A stretch of 64,000 nucleotides of DNA from Myxococcota bacterium (GTDB taxonomy: Bacteria; Myxococcota_A; Bradymonadia; UBA7976; UBA1532), in assembly GCA_036337435.1 (NCBI GenBank), contig JAYZEG010000063.1, positions 37,991-101,990 of the forward strand. The letters are read 5' to 3'. Of this stretch, positions 30,001 through 39,000 are shown one piece after another. Numbering within the stretch: position 1 is the stretch's first letter; each line of letters opens with the position of its first letter. A program made the position numbers.

Positions 30001-33000
30001 ATTTACGGGAACACATTGGCCCAGTTGTTCTAGGCATGTAAAACCCTCTGGACAGGCTTCGAGTCCCTCGCCACAGGCTGTTGTGCAAAAGCTACCCGTG
30101 TTACCGATTGGCGTGCACTCAGCACCGTCGCCCAATGCATCACAATCACGGTCTGTATTACAGGTTTGGCAGAGCCCTTGGTAGCTGGCCCCACCCGCAT
30201 CGGTTTGCCCTACGCCGGCATCCCGCGCACTCATACCCATATCTGTATTGATGACGAGAACATCGGCGGTCACCGTGGGTTCTGGTGCACATGACCATAG
30301 ATACGGACCGTCATCGACGCAGACTTGTCCATCGGGACACGTGAGGATACCGTCCCCGCATTCTCGACGAGAACAACTGTTGGTCGCTTGTACACAGACA
30401 CGGCCCGATCCTGGACATTCTCCCAGGCTTTGGCATGGTTCCGAGACGCATTCTTTTGATTCATCGTCGCAAATTAAGCCTCGGCTGCAATCAGCGTCTG
30501 CATTACAACTCTGAGGCTCATCGTCAGAACAGCCTGTCGCAACAGAGAGCAGAGCACCCAGTAGAATGATGGTCTTTACTGAAAATAAACTACGCATGGT
30601 TCTATTGTCCTCGGGCTTTATGACTCAACTGTAGCCAAAATGGGGCCTCAGTGAGCATCACCATGGTTTCTGAAGGTGTCGGAATATATGTGACTCGGAG
30701 GGGCTGAGGCAAGCATTCTGTTTAAACTTCCCGTCATTCAAAGGTTATTCAGTTCGATTTTTGTTGAAATTCCCGCAGTTTTAGTCGAACCAAGGGCGTG
30801 TTATGTCTGTAACGTTCAACAAAATTACGGTTTGAGTAGTCGATGAGTAATCTCAAGATTCCAGATGTTTTTTCGACGCATTCCGCGGCTAAATATTGTC
30901 GTGTCACGCCCATGACCATCATTCGCTGGATCGAAGAGGGCAGAATTAAAGCTTATAAGACCCCCGGGGGGCATCGTCGGATTATGCGTGGCGACTTGGA
31001 CGAGTTTTGTCGAGCGACGGGCATTCCTATCGAATGGGACACCCGTGGTAATCAAGGTCCGAAACGCGTCTTGGTCATCGATGATGATGAGCATTCGGTT
31101 AACTCAATTTTGGATGCCCTTTTGGATGCTGAGGGCGACGACTCCATGGTGACCTTCAAGATCGCGCACACAGACAATGCGTTTGATGCCGGCATGATGA
31201 TGCGAGATCTAAAACCAGAAATCATTTTTCTCGATCTTGACCTCGCAGGCACCGACCCTGTTCGGCTCATCGCATCCATACGTCATGATGCCGATCTACG
31301 AGATTGTCGGGTCGTTGGTATTGCCTCGGAACAGACGCCAGCAAACATGCCGGTCGACCGCGTACTGCATCGACCATTGGCCCGCGGAGCCGTCCGGCAA
31401 GCAACGGGTCCAATGCCCATCGTCAAAATTTAGGTGAACTCCCCAATCTGTGTTCCCCCTCGATTTGGATATCGGCGACGTCCATGACGCCGCAAATCCT
31501 TAGAAGGATTGAAGTAATTTGCCGTAGACGGTTTCATAATCGTGTGGTTTAGTGTACCCAGAGGTATACAAAGGCAGTATAGGTTCTTCGGAGGTCTTTT
31601 ATGAATCGCTCAATCGGCGTACGAAGTCTCATTTCCGCGGGTATTAACAAGTTAAAAGCACCGACAGATGAGATCCCGATTACAGGGAATCGGCGTGCCT
31701 TGGTCATGGCTATAGCAGCGCAGAAAGGCGGCGTCGGTAAGACGACGACGACAGTCAACCTCGCGTGTGCTTGGGCAAAGCAATCAAAGTATCGAATTCT
31801 TGTCATCGATATCGACCCACAGGGTCATGTCTCGTCGTCGCTGAGAGAAAACATCAAGCCGGCGTCATCGACGTTGACCGAAATTCTTTTGGCCGACAGA
31901 CCGCGGGACATCTTGGATGCAGTGTTTCAAACCAATCTGCCAAATTTGAGTTTAACGGCGGCTGATAAAGGACTCGCCGAAACCGATGCTCAACTGGCGA
32001 GTCGAGTTGGGCGGGAATACATTCTCAAGAGCGCCATCGCCAACGCGAGGAGCCATTACGACATTATTTTGATCGATTGTCCGCCAAATTTAGGAAATCT
32101 GACCCTCAATGCACTCGTCGCTGCCGATTGTGTCTTGGTCCCGTGTGACATGAGCATTCTCGCCTTCGAAGGTGTCGCCGATCTTCTTGGGACTGTTCGA
32201 ACCGTAAACTTAAGGCTTGGTCAGAACTTGGATATTGCAGGGATTATTCGAACGCGGGTTGACGGACGCACTCGGCAAATTAACGACGCCATCGGTGGTG
32301 CTCTTCGAGACAACTATGGCGAGCTGCTGCTGGACACTGTGATTCCAATTAACTCAGCTTTAGCGAAAGCTCAGGCGGCCGGTCTCAGCATCTTTGAGTT
32401 CCAGGCTCGTTCTCGGGGGGCAGAAGCCTATCTTTCTCTGTCCAATGAACTGGAAGCCCGTCTATCGCTGGGCGCAGATCAGGTTCATGCCTCGACCTTT
32501 TAATTCTGCTTAGGCTGGCTTGCTCACACGAGTGGAACTGCTGTGATTATCCATGGAATATAATCGTCCGTCCGGCGGATCGTGTATACTAGAAGTGCAT
32601 GTTGTATTTGTTGTAGGCCTTAAGCGAAATTGAACCCCAGTTCATCAACGTCAAAGCGCATCAAACGGGTTCCGAAAGCAGCACCTAAGGCGGGGCGTAA
32701 GCGCAGGCAGCGTGAGCCGGTACCCGTCACCGTGGATTTACTGCGATCGACGCCGTTTTTTGCTCACCTGCCGCAACCTTACCTCGATGCGTTGGTGTCC
32801 CGTGCAGAGCATGTTGAATTGGCGCGTGGAGAACATGCCTTTAATGGCCGACCGCTTGGTGGGCAGGACATGACTCTCTTTCTCGTTCTCTTTGGAGACC
32901 TCAGTGTTCACAGAACCCAGAATAAAGGGCCGGAGGAAACGGCGAATTATCTGACCGTCGGCGACTTCTTTGTTGAAAGGTTGATCGTCGATGACGACAC

Positions 33001-36000: not shown

Positions 36001-39000
36001 CAGTGTGACTGGATTCGCACTTGAAGAGCGTCATGCCGAGCAGCCCTGTTATCGTTGCCACCCGAACGGAACTGAAATTGAAGATGACACGGAAAGGCGC
36101 TGTTCGTTTTGCCACACGGACGTCCATCAAGGCCAATTCGAAGCCCCGCTGGACCAATTAAATCGGTCCCTGGCGTCCCAGTCCCAGCAGGCATCTGATG
36201 GCTGTGAAAAATGTCATTCGGGTTTTCGGTCCTGGAAAATTCCATTCTTTGACCACAATATCAGTCAATTTGCGCTCACTGGGCAGCACCAGACGGTGCC
36301 TTGTTCAGGGTGTCACACGGAGGGACATTTCAAGCCCATTGATACAGCCTGTGCGAATTGTCATTACAATTTCCACGAGGGGCAGTTCAGTCAACCGTGT
36401 GACCAATGTCACACAACAAAAGCCTGGGCACCGTTGGAGGGATTCGACCACAACACCAGAACGGACTATCGCTTGGATGGCCGTCATGAAGAGGTCGATT
36501 GCGGCAAATGTCATATCGACAACATCTATACAGACACGCCGCAGGCATGTGGAGATTGTCACGTCGATGTCCATAAGGGAAAGCTTGGTCCGGGTTGTGA
36601 CCGCTGCCATGGCGTTGAGGATTGGTCAATCAACACGATGCAAGACCATGATTTCGGCGCATTCCGACTGGGTGGCGTTCACGACCTATTGCCCTGCGAG
36701 GAGTGTCACGGTCCAGATCGAAAGGAGACGCAAGCTGGACGAGGTCCCGAATGCGTAAACTGTCATCGAGATCCCCATTTCGGGAGCTTTGGACCTCAAT
36801 GTTTCGAATGTCACAATCAACAAGCTTTCTTGCCAAGTACCTTTCTTCACGCTGAAACGGGCTTCCGACTGTCTGGAGCACATCGTTTTGTTGAATGCCG
36901 GGATTGTCATCCTGGGCGTGTTTTCGGCGGGTTGCCCAATGATTGTTTCTTCTGTCATACACAAGATTTCAACGCGACCGCCGGCAGTAAGCTCTGCGAT
37001 CACACAGCGTGCATTCCAGGCGGGTTAGACACCTGTCACAATTGTCATCGGTCAACAAGTTTCATCCCAGCGCGGCCCGGCTCCGGGTGCGGGGTTTGCG
37101 AGGTCAATGGCCGATGAATGCGACTCTGCATAGGCGTGTTTGGTGCTGTGTTCTAATGCTTTCCGTCGCCCAAGCTCAGAACGAAGACTGGTCCGTTGAT
37201 GGTAGAATTGCCTCCCGTAGTCTCTATTCTACGGCTGACGGCCCCGTTTCCAAAGATGTGGTGTTCCAGTTCGTCGACTTGGATCTAGAGGCTGAGCATA
37301 TGGGGGTTTTTGATACCTCACTTACGCTGGACGCCACCATCCTCTGGGATATTAGTGAAGCTCAGGAACGGAGGTTTGGCGAGACACAGTCATTCCAACA
37401 ACTCAGACAGCTGTATCTCCAACAGGCAGTGGGCCAAAAATGGTCTGTGTCGGCCGGTCGCCGCATTATCTTTCAAGCCGGAAACGCTTGGGTCGATGGC
37501 CTTGATATTCAGCTTAAATTGAACAACGCCATCATGGTGGGTGCCTACGGCGGATTACGACCTGATCCAAATAGCTACAAGCCAACAACGACCTATCAGA
37601 CCTTGGGCACCTATTCGAGTTATAAACGGGACGGACTGAATATTGAATTCGGTTACAACCTGATTTTGAGAGACGGCTTAGATCGTCAATTTCTCTATGG
37701 ACGCACCCACTATCGGTTGTCACCTGGACTCTATGTAAATGTCTACTCGGTGGTGGATACACTGGATGAAATCGAGCCTGTGACATTCTTGTCGACTCTT
37801 GATTATACGCCAACAAAGGCCGTGAATCTCTCGCTTAATTATACGCGGTACAGCATTGAAGCCTACCGAAACCAAGCCATCTATCGCAATGTAGTCCGGC
37901 TCAATCAAGCCTTGTTGCTTGGTGATGAAATTATTGATCTGGTCTATAATCGGGTGCGCCTATCAGGGTCTTATCGATTTTGGCGACGCTACTATCATTA
38001 TCAAACTATCGAATACAAAAGGCGGAGCCAAGACAGGAGGCAATCTTGGGCCTATATCATTGGTATCCGGAACAACAATCTCTGGTCTACTGGAACCCGT
38101 CTCGACCTCCGAACGACTCTGAGAAATAATTTTCAGAGCGATTCCTGGTTGATTGCAGGCGATCTGGAGAAAGACGTTTTATTGGAGTTGACCCTCAACT
38201 TGCACGGGACAGTTTTTGACGGCCGAACCATAGACCGCTTCACCGAACGAGGCCGTACCTTTGATGAGGCGCAGCGGATTTACTTGATGGGCGGATCTTT
38301 GTTTTGGAGGCCATCGCGAGCGCATCATCTGAGCTTGACCTACGATGGTGTCTACGAAACAGACCTGATCGATCAACGAAACGACGCTGCGCTGTTCATT
38401 CACACTGGCCTATTCAGGTACGCGTACCACTTTTGAGATCACAGTCGGCTGGGCGTACGCGATTTCAGACTTCCATAAGTTCGTCTTGTTTCCGACCAAC
38501 GATGCCATCGATGGTCTCCGTAGCACCATCCGTGAGCCCTTGAACTTTTTCCAGTGACTTCTTGAGTTCGTCTTCTGTTAGGTCGCCGTCTTTTTGTAAG
38601 GCCTTAAGCATCGCATTGGCGTCTCGCCGGCTATTCCTTGCGGAGACCTTAGCCGTCTCTCCCAATCGTTGAACGGTCTTCACCAGCTCTTTGCGTCGTT
38701 CTTCAGTTAACGGGGGGATTGATAGACGAATGACCGTGCCATCGTTAGCTGGGTTGAGACCGAGATTCGATTGTTGAATCGCACGTTCAACATCACCCAA
38801 AAGGTCTTTCTCCCAGGGCTTGATTGAAATTGTTCGAGGTTCCGGAACTTGGATTGATGCGACTTGATTAAGTGGTGTTGGTTGTCCGTAGTAGGAAACC
38901 CTGATGTTATCGAGTAAATTGACGTTGGCTCGACCAGAACGAACCCTGGCCAGATCACGGCGCAGGGCACTGTAGGTCTTTTCAAAAGTCGCTTTTAGGT

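What a model noticed while it worked through the whole genome (the two positions that open the first line are those of the whole stretch)
32630..38436. Three-gene envelope-spanning electron conduit: cNMP/FeS/heme-b membrane protein, 30-haem cytochrome, new porin
g02612-g02613-g02614 encode a candidate cytoplasm-to-outer-membrane electron path not described before: a 670-aa inner-membrane protein with cyclic-nucleotide-binding domain, CooF/HydN-like 2x[4Fe-4S] domain and a 4-5-helix His-bearing membrane domain (DUF4405-like in relatives); a secreted 774-aa cytochrome c with 30 CxxCH sites; and a 440-aa outer-membrane barrel ending ...YAYHF without any Pfam/NCBIfam family, a remote homologue of the porin of the two-gene porin-cytochrome pair also present at C66:46385-48822 (g02713 barrel + g02714, 11 CxxCH).
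Evidence so far: CxxCH counts; scans: g02612 cNMP_binding 82-151, Fer4_7 271-336; g02613 Cytochrome_C7 x8; g02614 and g02713 no family; helices of g02612 at 376,457,478,644; PF14358 on relatives of g02612. g02614 in 21/27 genomes of the family, 3/3 and 4/5 of two other families; in all 24 fetched loci the frame just upstream holds 13-21 CxxCH within the 1.5 kb seen. g02612 orthologues lie 2-4 kb from the barrel on the same contig and strand in at least 19 genomes. Barrel homology: hhalign E 1.9e-4, probability 48%; an HMM of 131 representatives of the g02713 family (g02614 left out) hits in this proteome only g02713 (1e-100) and g02614 (5.7e-7). g02713-type barrel in 164 of 401 sampled Myxococcota_A genomes [...]
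(Added by a program. Inside this text positions count along the whole contig: contig position 37,991 is position 1 of the stretch shown here. "Call 12" and the like, gene names such as g00115 and contig names such as C1 are that model's own, and its searches are not shown. The text may have been shortened before it was handed on; [...] marks where a part breaks off. The agent that wrote the report below was given it as the finding of a first reader that could run no searches.)

Follow-up and report, generated by a model that had tools for sequence, protein, structure and literature searches.

The report
Three-gene porin-cytochrome electron conduit variant
An uncultured marine myxobacterium carries a conserved gene set for an iron-sulfur and haem membrane protein, a 30-haem periplasmic cytochrome and an empty 22-strand outer-membrane barrel, which together most likely wire the cell interior to the outside; it is a new variant of a conduit type predicted in 2017 but never tested.

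Summary
Three + strand genes encode a 670-aa inner-membrane protein, a 774-aa cytochrome with exactly 30 CxxCH and a 440-aa family-less barrel whose ATG overlaps the cytochrome's stop.

Corrections:
- The Fe-S domain has 16 invariant Cys in four motifs, so four clusters, not two.
- The "cNMP" domain lacks a conserved phosphate-binding cassette.
- The barrel models as a plug-less 22-strand barrel (pLDDT 87).

Four invariant His, two HX13H pairs on parallel helices, predict two membrane-spanning b haems.

In the order's 31 genomes, barrel and membrane protein occur together in 25. Two hold the membrane protein alone, none the barrel alone, and four hold neither.

"Not described before" is overstated. 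He et al. 2017 predicted PCC3/PCC4 clusters with the same logic and the same membrane-protein motifs, including a neighbouring Fe-S gene. This scan already noted the same fusion in another genome (e1-2877969).

New here:
- the fused CRP-like/four-cluster/di-haem protein;
- a single cytochrome fixed at 30 haems;
- a Cys-rich lipoprotein gene linked to the membrane protein;
- homologous membrane modules fused to NAD(P)H-flavin domains in 43 of 80 related loci.

That last point suggests export of cytoplasmic electrons. Direction and barrel-cytochrome contact remain untested. Verdict: new variant of a known, predicted kind.

The parts
32630..34642 (+). Inner-membrane electron-transfer protein, 670 aa. 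It has an N-terminal CRP-like beta-barrel domain, a four-[4Fe-4S] domain and a five-helix di-haem-b membrane domain.
   Evidence: Full-length homologues of 653-703 aa cover 94-100% of it.
32735..33139 (+). CRP/cNMP-binding-like domain (about residues 36-170) with a degenerate phosphate-binding cassette.
   Evidence: PF00027 scores 30.2 bits against a cut-off of 27.5. PKG and CRP domains match in the PDB. The PKG 'GE...RTA' aligns to 'VE...KSI', and columns 125-127 vary across 55 relatives.
33236..33637 (+). Cytoplasmic four-cluster ferredoxin domain (residues 203-336) of the HydN/HycB type.
   Evidence: 16 Cys in four motifs, all invariant. HycB3 7qv7_A matches at E 2.7e-16 over profile positions 204-348. 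NCBIfam gives sub-threshold hits to AegA and HydN.
33755..34630 (+). Membrane domain (residues 376-667) with five helices, two HX13H pairs (H463/H477 and H646/H660), TGxIGR on helix 4 and a cytoplasmic insert of about 130 aa.
   Evidence: The four His are invariant in A2 (55 sequences) and A3 (12 distant sequences). Hydropathy. DUF4405 matches 47 of 55 relatives.
34793..37117 (+). Secreted 774-aa cytochrome c: 30 CxxCH in ten tri-haem c7-like modules, 25.8 residues per haem.
   Evidence: All 30 CxxCH and 29 further His are invariant in 47 sequences. N-terminal signal peptide.
37114..38436 (+). Outer-membrane 22-strand beta-barrel, 440 aa, with a signal peptide and a C-terminal ...YAYHF. It has no plug.
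   Evidence: AF2 pLDDT 87.3, pTM 0.80, 22 strands from residue 27. VIA matches 22-strand TonB-dependent barrels at Z 16-18.6 and MtrB at Z 16.4. No Pfam or NCBIfam family. ATGA overlap with the cytochrome stop.
29101..30597 (-). Cys-rich lipoprotein, 498 aa with 71 Cys and a lipobox ...ATGC. It is a possible accessory component. In most genera its gene sits directly upstream of the membrane-protein gene; here it is inverted and two genes away.
   Evidence: A homologue lies in the same 17 of 20 family loci that hold the membrane protein. It is directly upstream of the membrane protein in 4 of 4 split loci. It is also present in 2 genomes that lack the membrane protein. No family.

Best explanation
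The three genes encode a trans-envelope electron conduit of the porin-cytochrome kind.

Proposed path:
1. A cytoplasmic reductant, not identified in this genome, reduces a chain of four [4Fe-4S] clusters on the cytoplasmic face of the inner-membrane protein.
2. Electrons cross the membrane through two b haems held by H463/H646 (cytoplasmic side) and H477/H660 (periplasmic side).
3. They enter a 30-haem, all bis-His cytochrome built of ten c7-like tri-haem modules. This chain is long enough to bridge the periplasm.
4. The cytochrome reaches the cell surface through the lumen of a plug-less 22-strand outer-membrane barrel.

What is shown and what is inferred:
- Shown: the cofactor motifs and their invariance, the barrel fold, synteny, translational coupling and co-occurrence.
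- Inferred: haem and cluster occupancy, insertion of the cytochrome in the barrel, and outward flow. Outward flow is inferred from homologous membrane modules fused to NAD(P)H-flavin reductase domains.

The CRP-like N-terminal domain probably senses something other than cAMP or cGMP, or is structural.
For: Cofactors:
- 16 invariant Cys lie in four ferredoxin motifs and match HycB-type four-cluster subunits.
- Four invariant His lie 14 residues apart on two helices. Both helices run from inside to outside if the Fe-S domain is cytoplasmic, so the His pair up into two stacked haem sites.
- DUF4405 relatives bind haem b in experiments (PMC11334425, passages).
- 30 CxxCH and 29 further His are invariant in 47 cytochrome sequences.

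Barrel:
- 22 strands, pLDDT 87.3, no N-terminal plug.
- Its best structural matches are 22-strand TonB-dependent transporter barrels, which in nature are filled by a plug. MtrB scores Z 16.4.
- The most conserved stretch of the family (260-284) overlaps the model's only low-confidence segment (250-274). That is what a partner-contact loop would look like.

Linkage:
- ATGA overlap of cytochrome and barrel.
- Membrane protein, cytochrome and barrel are contiguous in 17 of 20 family loci. The haem count is exactly 30 in 18 of 20, and also in 2 of 2 loci of family f2 and in G038.
- In the order's 31 genomes: both barrel and membrane protein in 25, membrane protein only in 2 (genomes 77% and 80% complete), barrel only in 0, neither in 4.
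- Full-length membrane-protein orthologues persist in 5 of 5 genomes where the gene is not beside the barrel.

Wider family:
- I fetched 20 loci from the 60 genomes of the phylum that matched the barrel profile. All 20 have a multihaem cytochrome beside the barrel hit, 17 have one with 20 or more CxxCH, and 12 have a homologue of the membrane domain.
- Of 80 public loci holding a membrane-domain homologue, 73 have a cytochrome with 10 or more haems, 63 one with 20 or more, and 45 a barrel hit. In 43 the membrane domain is fused to a Pyr_redox FAD/NAD(P)H domain.
Against: - No complex model could be made, so insertion of the cytochrome in the barrel is untested here.
- No structure model of the membrane protein could be made.
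- This genome (87% complete) has no flavin partner resembling the fused Pyr_redox domains, so the cytoplasmic donor is unknown.
- He et al. 2017 proposed the opposite use for PCC3/PCC4: electron uptake into the quinone pool.
- The window's own membrane domain scores only E 0.46 against PF14358 and lacks the two Trp of the WX3H motif.
- In genus g10 and family f2 the membrane-protein gene is unlinked from cytochrome and barrel.
- Relatives are not independent, so the co-occurrence counts overstate the support.
- The organisms are uncultured, and no RNA data were found.
Confidence: 0.7

Rival explanations
1. It is an electron-uptake or quinone-linked conduit, as proposed for PCC3/PCC4. Extracellular Fe(II), Mn(II) or another donor feeds the 30-haem wire. 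The di-haem-b domain reduces quinone, or oxidises quinol. The cytoplasmic Fe-S domain is a side branch or a regulator.
For: He et al. 2017 proposed this model for membrane proteins with the same motifs (PMC5566968, passages and section 16). Di-haem b proteins commonly carry quinone sites (general knowledge). Porin-cytochrome conduits of the Mtr/Mto type are discussed as reversible (PMC10734462, passage).
Against: All 16 cluster-binding Cys are invariant, which argues for a working cytoplasmic Fe-S chain. 43 of 80 homologous modules carry a cytoplasmic FAD/NAD(P)H domain. Reducing NAD(P)+ from Fe(II) would be uphill (inference). No quinone-site motif was identified, but none was searched for.
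Confidence: 0.2
2. The cytochrome is a periplasmic electron store or wire that never crosses the outer membrane. The barrel is an ordinary solute channel that happens to be co-transcribed.
For: The barrel's structural matches are generic: porins, ushers and TonB-dependent barrels, with TM-scores of 0.51 or less in Foldseek. No extracellular cytochrome gene lies in the cluster. Long c7-type polymers of Geobacter are discussed as periplasmic stores (recalled; abstract of PMC10138318 seen in the listing).
Against: In 20 of 20 fetched loci across the phylum, distant barrel homologues sit beside multihaem cytochromes. The start and stop codons overlap. No barrel occurs without the membrane protein in 31 genomes. 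An empty 22-strand barrel would be a very large open pore unless something fills it (inference).
Confidence: 0.08
3. The membrane protein works separately from cytochrome and barrel. For example, it may serve the adjacent Cys-rich lipoprotein as a periplasmic reductase system, and its adjacency to the cytochrome is a regional accident.
For: In genus g10 and family f2 the lipoprotein and membrane-protein genes form one pair and cytochrome and barrel another, at separate loci. The lipoprotein gene lies next to the membrane-protein gene in 17 of 20 family loci and 4 of 4 split loci.
Against: Membrane protein and barrel are lost together in 4 genomes, and no genome has the barrel alone. Distant membrane-domain homologues are again clustered with barrels and large cytochromes. 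The lipoprotein family persists in 2 genomes that lack the membrane protein.
Confidence: 0.05

Closest known systems
PCC3 and PCC4, predicted porin-cytochrome c clusters of neutrophilic iron oxidisers and other Proteobacteria (He et al. 2017, PMC5566968; Gallionellaceae pangenome, PMC10734462)
   Same: - A porin gene sits beside cytochromes with very many haems. PCC3 periplasmic cytochromes have 21, 24 or 27 haems, with 22-39 residues per haem (median 26). Here there are 30 haems at 25.8 residues per haem.
- Both have a conserved five-helix inner-membrane protein with two HX13H motifs on helices 3 and 5 and an [S/T]GxxG motif on helix 4.
- PCC4 subgroup II has an Fe-S (pfam13247) gene directly upstream of the membrane-protein gene. 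In one Oceanospirillum genome the two were annotated as one gene.
- Both were proposed as conduits that span the whole envelope.
   Different: - There is no second, extracellular cytochrome as in PCC3, and no set of 4-, 5- and 10-haem cytochromes as in PCC4.
- The membrane protein is fused to a four-cluster ferredoxin and a CRP-like domain.
- The barrel has 22 strands. PCC3 porins were predicted with up to 42 transmembrane regions.
- The lineage is Myxococcota/Bradymonadia-like and is not listed in that paper or its supplements.
- The window's protein has Leu and Tyr where the WX3H Trp residues stand.
- Sequence homology of the porins could not be tested.
- PCC3/PCC4 are themselves uncharacterised experimentally, as far as the passages I read say.
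Two-gene Pcc clusters of Anaeromyxobacter (Group IV of Shi et al. 2014, PMC4245776) and Geobacter OmbB-OmaB-OmcB
   Same: Both follow the porin-plus-periplasmic-multihaem-cytochrome logic. The genome's own C66 pair (452-aa barrel and 360-aa, 11-haem cytochrome) fits the description of the Anaeromyxobacter pairs (338-344 aa, 12-14 haems). The window barrel is a remote homologue of the C66 barrel family (hhalign probability 82%, E 1e-5).
   Different: The window has 30 haems rather than 8-14, no outer-membrane lipoprotein cytochrome, and a dedicated inner-membrane partner. The window-type barrel is confined to one order, while the C66 type is in 155 of 401 sampled genomes. Homology to OmbB itself was not tested, because no reference sequence was at hand.
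MtrCAB/MtoAB (solved complex 6R2Q)
   Same: It is the only solved example of a cytochrome sheathed by an outer-membrane barrel. MtrB aligns to the model at Z 16.4, rmsd 4.9 over 350 residues.
   Different: MtrB has 26 strands (recalled). The window barrel gives no NCBIfam MtrB/PioB hit. MtrA has ten haems and is unrelated to c7 polymers. The structural match is no better than to unrelated 22-strand barrels.
DUF4405, MsrQ, PepSY-like and NOX/FRE-type di-haem-b transmembrane electron carriers (PMC11334425)
   Same: Four central His predict two stacked b haems that carry electrons across the membrane. In NOX/FRE, and in 43 of 80 homologues of this module, a cytoplasmic NAD(P)H-flavin domain is attached.
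   Different: Here the cytoplasmic module is a four-cluster ferredoxin without a flavin domain. The partner outside the membrane is a 30-haem cytochrome, not a flavinylated protein or a soluble substrate. The Pfam match of the window's own protein is below threshold.
c7-type polymer cytochromes of Geobacter (GSU1996, GSU0592, GSU2210; recalled, only search listings seen)
   Same: Both are tandem tri-haem c7-like modules that form a rod of closely spaced haems. Pfam Cytochrome_C7 matches in 7 stretches.
   Different: The window has ten modules. All haems are probably bis-His, since there are 64 His and only 6 Met, whereas the Geobacter domains have one His-Met haem each (recalled). The window's cytochrome gene is coupled to a barrel gene.

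Membership tests
PCC3/PCC4 (He et al. 2017) | A beta-barrel porin gene adjacent to multihaem cytochrome genes | tested here: met
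   The barrel ATG overlaps the cytochrome stop. The order is conserved in all 20 family loci, one of which is cut at a contig end.
PCC3/PCC4 (He et al. 2017) | Cytochrome with a very large haem count and a low ratio of residues to haem (22-39, median 26) | tested here: met
   30 CxxCH in 774 aa gives 25.8 residues per haem.
PCC3/PCC4 (He et al. 2017) | Inner-membrane protein with five helices, two WX3HX13H motifs (helices 3 and 5) and SGXXG on helix 4 | tested here: met
   Both HX13H pairs and GxxGR are invariant in A3 (12 distant sequences). Both Trp are near-invariant there, but the window's protein has L and Y instead, and TGTIG for SGXXG. This is a comparison of motifs. No PCC3/PCC4 reference sequence was aligned.
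PCC3 | A second, extracellular multihaem cytochrome in the cluster | tested here: not met
   No other ORF with 3 or more CxxCH lies in the window cluster or in the family loci.
PCC4 | Three periplasmic cytochromes with 4, 5 and 10 haems | tested here: not met
   There is a single 30-haem cytochrome.
PCC4 subgroup II | Fe-S (pfam13247) protein encoded directly upstream of the membrane-protein gene | tested here: met
   It is present as a fusion. Fer4_11 (PF13247) scores E 1.6e-4, below its cut-off, on the window's own protein, and 54 of 55 relatives match at E<=1.
PCC3/PCC4 | Sequence homology of the porin to PCC3 or PCC4 porins | not testable with these tools
   No named reference sequence could be fetched. 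Remote relatives of the barrel carried no useful names: 10 were looked up and 1 came from a Nitrospirota MAG.
Geobacter Pcc (OmbB-OmaB-OmcB) | Porin plus 8-haem periplasmic cytochrome plus outer-membrane lipoprotein cytochrome, and homology to OmbB | tested here: not met
   The composition differs. Homology to OmbB itself was not testable. There is only an indirect link through the C66-type barrel.
MtrB/PioB porins | Match to the NCBIfam/TIGRFAM MtrB/PioB model, with a decahaem MtrA partner | tested here: not met
   The barrel has no NCBIfam hit at E<=0.01. Its partner has 30 haems. The fold match to 6r2q_B (Z 16.4) is no better than to other large barrels.
TonB-dependent transporters | A 22-strand barrel with an N-terminal plug domain | tested here: not met
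   The 22-strand barrel fold matches (FyuA Z 18.6). However, the strands start at residue 27, right after the signal peptide, and there is no Plug or TonB_dep_Rec Pfam hit.
DUF4405 (PF14358) haem-b membrane proteins | Pfam match and four central conserved His | tested here: inconclusive
   The window's own protein scores E 0.46 (11.5 bits against a cut-off of 26.7). 47 of 55 relatives match at E<=1, best 1.1e-6. The four His are invariant.
Cyclic-nucleotide-binding domain (PF00027) | Domain match, and a phosphate-binding cassette (Gly-Glu ... Arg-Thr/Ser-Ala; motif recalled) | tested here: not met
   The domain matches above its cut-off (30.2 against 27.5 bits). The cassette does not: PKG 'GE..RTA' aligns to 'VE..KSI', and columns 125-127 vary among 55 relatives.
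Four-cluster ferredoxin subunits (HydN/HycB/DmsB type) | Four Cys motifs (16 Cys) binding four [4Fe-4S] clusters | tested here: met
   The motifs lie at 205-215, 240-252, 272-282 and 317-332, and all Cys are invariant. HycB3 matches at E 2.7e-16 across all four motifs. NCBIfam equivalog cut-offs are not reached, so it belongs to none of the named enzymes.

The most novel reading that the evidence does not exclude
This may be a quinone-independent electron exporter that works like an NADPH oxidase stretched across the whole envelope. Cytoplasmic reductant (ferredoxin-level here, NAD(P)H in the flavin-fused relatives) would be wired through Fe-S clusters and two b haems into a fixed-length 30-haem 'ruler' cytochrome, and out through a barrel. 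The lineage is related to predatory bacteria, so it could serve to dump reducing power, or to reduce oxygen or metals outside the cell, rather than for energy-conserving respiration.
Probability: 0.3. Interest if true: 0.8.

Novelty: new variant of a known kind. Interest (0 to 1): 0.6.

Why it matters
Porin-cytochrome conduits are how bacteria exchange electrons with minerals, electrodes and partner cells. Only the Mtr type has a solved structure. PCC3/PCC4 are still only predictions.

This variant is compact: one inner-membrane protein, one cytochrome and one barrel. Its haem count is held at exactly 30 across genera. That makes it a clean system for asking how a single protein wire spans the periplasm and how it is sheathed by a barrel.

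The cytoplasmic Fe-S or NAD(P)H-flavin domains on the membrane module suggest that many such conduits draw directly on cytoplasmic reductant rather than on the quinone pool. If so, their bioenergetic meaning would change. It would also extend extracellular electron transfer to marine and soil Myxococcota, which are not usually counted among electroactive bacteria.

Tried and rejected
- **RNA evidence.** No RNA holder was listed, and read laying was not used.
- **Membrane domain against the PDB.** The A3 profile found nothing below E 0.2.
- **Public genome scans.** The search for related loci failed with the broad membrane-domain alignment A3 because it had no conserved stretch. The narrower A5 returned 80 loci, nearly all Myxococcota MAGs plus a few from other phyla. 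None came from the proteobacterial PCC3 hosts.
- **Names of remote barrel relatives.** Of 10 looked up, 1 had a name, a Nitrospirota MAG hypothetical protein.
- **Atlas look-ups.** They gave only unnamed clusters of about 430 aa (barrel) and about 310-326 aa (membrane domain) from Acidobacteriota, Aminicenantota, Verrucomicrobiota and Gemmatimonadota. These are leads only.
- **The two barrel families against each other.** The A1 profile does not hit the C66 barrel (at E<=0.01, at E<=0.001). BLAST of the C66 barrel finds none of 148 remote A1 relatives. Only the profile-profile comparison links them.
- **Promoter and terminator scans.** Counts were no higher than in shuffles.
- **A separate flavin partner in this genome.** Only a weak thioredoxin-reductase-like hit turned up.
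- **FeS regex.** It returned 0 of 80, which contradicts the Pfam Fer4 hits on the same kind of protein. I discard that count as a faulty pattern.
- **The lipoprotein as an obligatory fourth subunit.** Rejected as unproven, because its family occurs in 29 of 31 genomes, including 2 without the membrane protein.
- **Literature.** Searches found no paper describing this cluster in Myxococcota. The library lacks most subscription journals.

Full report
**What is there.** The window is contig C63, positions 37991-101990, of a 4.38-Mb, 95-contig genome. Three + strand ORFs occupy 32630-38436.
- The first is a 670-aa protein starting at TTG 32630.
- The second is a 774-aa protein (34793-37117).
- The third is a barrel protein whose best start is ATG 37114 (440 aa).
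- The barrel's ATG overlaps the cytochrome's TGA stop as ATGA. Only this start gives a signal peptide (MNATLHRRVWCCVLMLSVAQA).
- The source's own gene calls are shorter: 519 aa for the cytochrome and 426 aa for the barrel. Homologues of 722-805 aa and about 430-470 aa support the longer forms.

**The cytochrome.**
- It has 30 CxxCH, no CX3-4CH, 64 His and only 6 Met.
- The motif positions fall into ten groups of three, spaced about 16-19, 16-19 and 32-37 residues apart.
- Pfam finds Cytochrome_C7 in 7 stretches.
- In an alignment of 47 homologues, all 30 CxxCH and 29 further His are invariant. This fits 30 bis-His haems.
- At 25.8 residues per haem it is as dense as the densest haem wires described.
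- It has a Sec-type signal peptide and no lipobox.
- It is by far the largest cytochrome of the genome. The next has 11 haems.

**The inner-membrane protein.**
- Pfam gives cNMP_binding (82-151) and Fer4_7 (271-336).
- The Cys pattern shows four motifs rather than two: 205-215, 240-252, 272-282 and 317-332. All 16 Cys are invariant in 55 sequences.
- The best PDB relatives are the four-cluster subunits HycB3/HycB4 of hydrogen-dependent CO2 reductase and HycB of formate hydrogenlyase. HycB3 matches at E 2.7e-16 over all four motifs.
- There is no signal or Tat motif, so this domain is cytoplasmic (inference).
- Hydropathy gives helices at 376-396, about 431-451, 458-482, 486-508 and 645-667, with a 130-residue insert between helices 4 and 5.
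- H463, H477, H646 and H660 are invariant. They lie 14 residues apart on helices 3 and 5. Both helices run from inside to outside if the N-terminus is cytoplasmic. H463/H646 and H477/H660 can therefore each hold one b haem, one above the other. This step is inferred.
- PF14358 (DUF4405) matches 47 of 55 relatives at E<=1 (best 1.1e-6). The window's own protein scores only E 0.46.
- A DUF4405 protein was shown to bind haem b (PMC11334425, passages).
- The N-terminal domain matches PKG and CRP nucleotide-binding domains. However, where PKG has Gly-Glu...Arg-Thr-Ala the window has Val-Glu...Lys-Ser-Ile, and those last columns vary freely among relatives. The role of these residues is recalled, not tested. 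I therefore doubt cyclic-nucleotide control.

**The barrel.**
- It has no Pfam or NCBIfam family.
- 72 homologues were found, all unnamed and none with a precomputed Pfam domain.
- With 58 of them as alignment, AlphaFold2 gives pLDDT 87.3 and pTM 0.80. The model has 22 strands that start at residue 27, so there is no plug.
- Foldseek finds only generic outer-membrane barrels: the FimD usher and porins, with TM-scores of 0.51 or less.
- The search that does not depend on Foldseek ranks 22-strand TonB-dependent transporter barrels first (FyuA Z 18.6, rmsd 5.3, 359 aligned). MtrB of the solved Mtr complex is at rank 12 (Z 16.4, rmsd 4.9, 350 aligned). These rows are near ties and show fold, not function.
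- The most conserved 25-residue window of the family (260-284; 0.78 against 0.61 overall) overlaps the model's only low-confidence segment (250-274). The next most conserved windows (68-92, 369-393) are also centred on loops.
- I read these loops as candidate lumen or partner contacts. That is inference.

**Linkage.** I fetched 20 loci from the family.
- The membrane-protein, cytochrome and barrel genes are contiguous on one strand in 17.
- In two (genus g10) the membrane-protein gene is absent from the 8 kb upstream. One contig is cut.
- The cytochrome has exactly 30 CxxCH in 18 of 20. The exceptions are the cut one (12) and an over-long ORF (31).
- Both fetched loci of the second family of the order, and genome G038, also have a 30-haem gene beside the barrel.
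- In the five genomes without adjacency, a full-length membrane-protein orthologue lies on another contig.
- Across the 31 genomes of the order: both barrel and membrane protein in 25, membrane protein only in 2 (77% and 80% complete), barrel only in 0, neither in 4. Relatives are not independent, so this is supportive rather than a statistic.

**A possible fourth gene.**
- A 498-aa lipoprotein with 71 Cys and no known family lies at window 29101-30597 on the - strand.
- A homologue lies in the same 17 of 20 loci as the membrane protein.
- In 4 of 4 split loci it sits directly upstream of the membrane-protein gene on the same strand.
- In the window's genus it is inverted and separated by a response-regulator/HTH gene and a ParA-like gene.
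- Its family has paralogues and occurs in 29 of 31 genomes, including two without the membrane protein.
- I list it as a candidate accessory only.

**The wider family.**
- The barrel profile finds strong matches only in this order (15 of 17 and 2 of 2 in the phylum sample). G038 matches at 2.8e-36. The weak partial matches bring the total to 60 of 401 genomes.
- I fetched 20 of those 60. All 20 have a multihaem cytochrome beside the barrel hit. 17 have one with 20 or more CxxCH, in patterns such as 27, 30, 36, 20+10 and 23+13. 12 have a homologue of the membrane domain.
- An alignment of 12 such membrane domains keeps only the four His, G55, G88, the GxxGR motif and one Pro invariant, plus two near-invariant Trp four residues before the first His of each pair.
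- An exhaustive profile search finds 507 representative barrel relatives at E<=1e-3. They are mostly unnamed metagenomic proteins.
- Among 80 public loci holding a membrane-domain homologue, 73 have a cytochrome with 10 or more haems, 63 one with 20 or more, and 45 a barrel hit. In 43 the membrane domain is fused to a Pyr_redox FAD/NAD(P)H domain. Pfam confirms four such fusions, in different domain orders.
- Recurrent fusion to a cytoplasmic NAD(P)H-flavin module is my main argument that these modules carry cytoplasmic electrons outward, as NOX/FRE enzymes do.
- The window's genome has no such partner that I could find.

**The second cluster on C66.**
- It holds a 452-aa barrel and a 360-aa, 11-haem cytochrome, followed by a lipoprotein gene and a FadL-like barrel gene.
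- In 23 of 27 related loci the barrel is paired with a 10-13-haem cytochrome.
- This fits the two-gene pcc clusters that Shi et al. 2014 described in Anaeromyxobacter: a porin plus a 338-344-aa cytochrome with 12-14 haems (PMC4245776, passages).
- A profile of this barrel type hits 155 of 401 sampled genomes. The single protein hits 27 of 401.
- The profile-profile comparison with the window barrel gives probability 82%, E 1e-5 over 248 columns, and includes the GRRxI..GNAWVDG motif.
- Plain HMM and BLAST do not connect the two. Remote homology is plausible but not firm.

**Comparison with what is known.**
- He et al. 2017 (PMC5566968; abstract, passages, section 16 and supplements read or searched) predicted clusters of a porin and cytochromes with very many haems, 22-39 residues per haem.
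- Those clusters also have a roughly 300-aa, five-helix membrane protein with two WX3HX13H motifs and SGXXG. In PCC4 subgroup II an Fe-S gene lies upstream of that gene, and it was once annotated as fused.
- The Gallionellaceae pangenome paper reports PCC3 periplasmic cytochromes with 21, 24 or 27 haems that could span the periplasm (PMC10734462, passages).
- The window's cluster matches this logic and these motifs.
- It differs in having one cytochrome only, a fused four-cluster and CRP-like module, a 22-strand barrel and a different phylum.
- Neither paper's text nor the 2017 supplements mention Myxococcota. Six literature searches found no description of this cluster.
- I could not align it with PCC3/PCC4 reference sequences, so membership rests on motifs and architecture.

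**Verdict.** This is a real, conserved and probably functional trans-envelope electron conduit, and a new variant of a predicted but uncharacterised kind. Three things remain open: whether the cytochrome sits in the barrel, which way electrons flow, and what feeds the Fe-S chain.

Noticed in passing
window 29101-30597 (-): A Cys-rich lipoprotein (498 aa, 71 Cys, no family) has its gene next to the membrane-protein gene across the order, and it travels with that gene when the cluster is split. Its family has paralogues and persists in two genomes that lack the membrane protein.
   Followed up: partly
window 30843-31433 (+) and 31601-32503 (+): A response-regulator receiver with an HTH_17/MerR domain and a ParA/MinD-like ATPase lie between the lipoprotein gene and the membrane-protein gene. 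In the other genera they are not between these two genes: homologues of the regulator, and in about half of the loci of the ATPase, lie on the far side of the lipoprotein gene.
   Followed up: partly
L118-L186 (public MAG loci): A recurrent cluster type occurs in MAGs labelled Anaeromyxobacter, Archangium and other Myxococcota. It has a protein of about 740-780 aa with the membrane domain fused to a Pyr_redox FAD/NAD(P)H domain, a 20-haem and a 10-haem cytochrome, and in many loci a barrel. The fusion occurs in 43 of 80 loci.
   Followed up: partly
L033 (G000:C66:40001-54000), 8830-11336: Downstream of the two-gene porin-cytochrome pair lie a 394-aa lipoprotein gene and a 450-aa FadL/Toluene_X-like barrel gene. 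Upstream on the other strand are pilin-like genes and a weak PilY1-like protein of 821 aa.
   Followed up: no
window 34793-37117 and 37114-38436: The source's own gene calls for the cytochrome (519 aa) and the barrel (426 aa) are shorter than the forms supported by homologues. They lose the first haems and the signal peptide respectively.
   Followed up: yes
window 37861-38079 (barrel residues 250-322): The barrel family's most conserved stretch (NQALxLGDEV and its flanks) falls in the only low-confidence part of the AF2 model. Conserved charged loops, rather than strands, carry most of the family signature.
   Followed up: partly
window 38465-41438 (-): frr, pyrH, tsf and rpsB lie immediately downstream on the opposite strand. 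frr is next to the barrel gene in 14 of 20 family loci, so the cluster sits in a stable housekeeping neighbourhood.
   Followed up: partly
P0171 and similar proteins: Soluble proteins of about 800 aa combine Pyr_redox, cNMP-binding domains (two stretches in P0171, the one scanned) and the same Fe-S module. They are widespread in Gammaproteobacteria, Gallionella and others, and are annotated only as 'cyclic nucleotide-binding domain-containing protein'.
   Followed up: no
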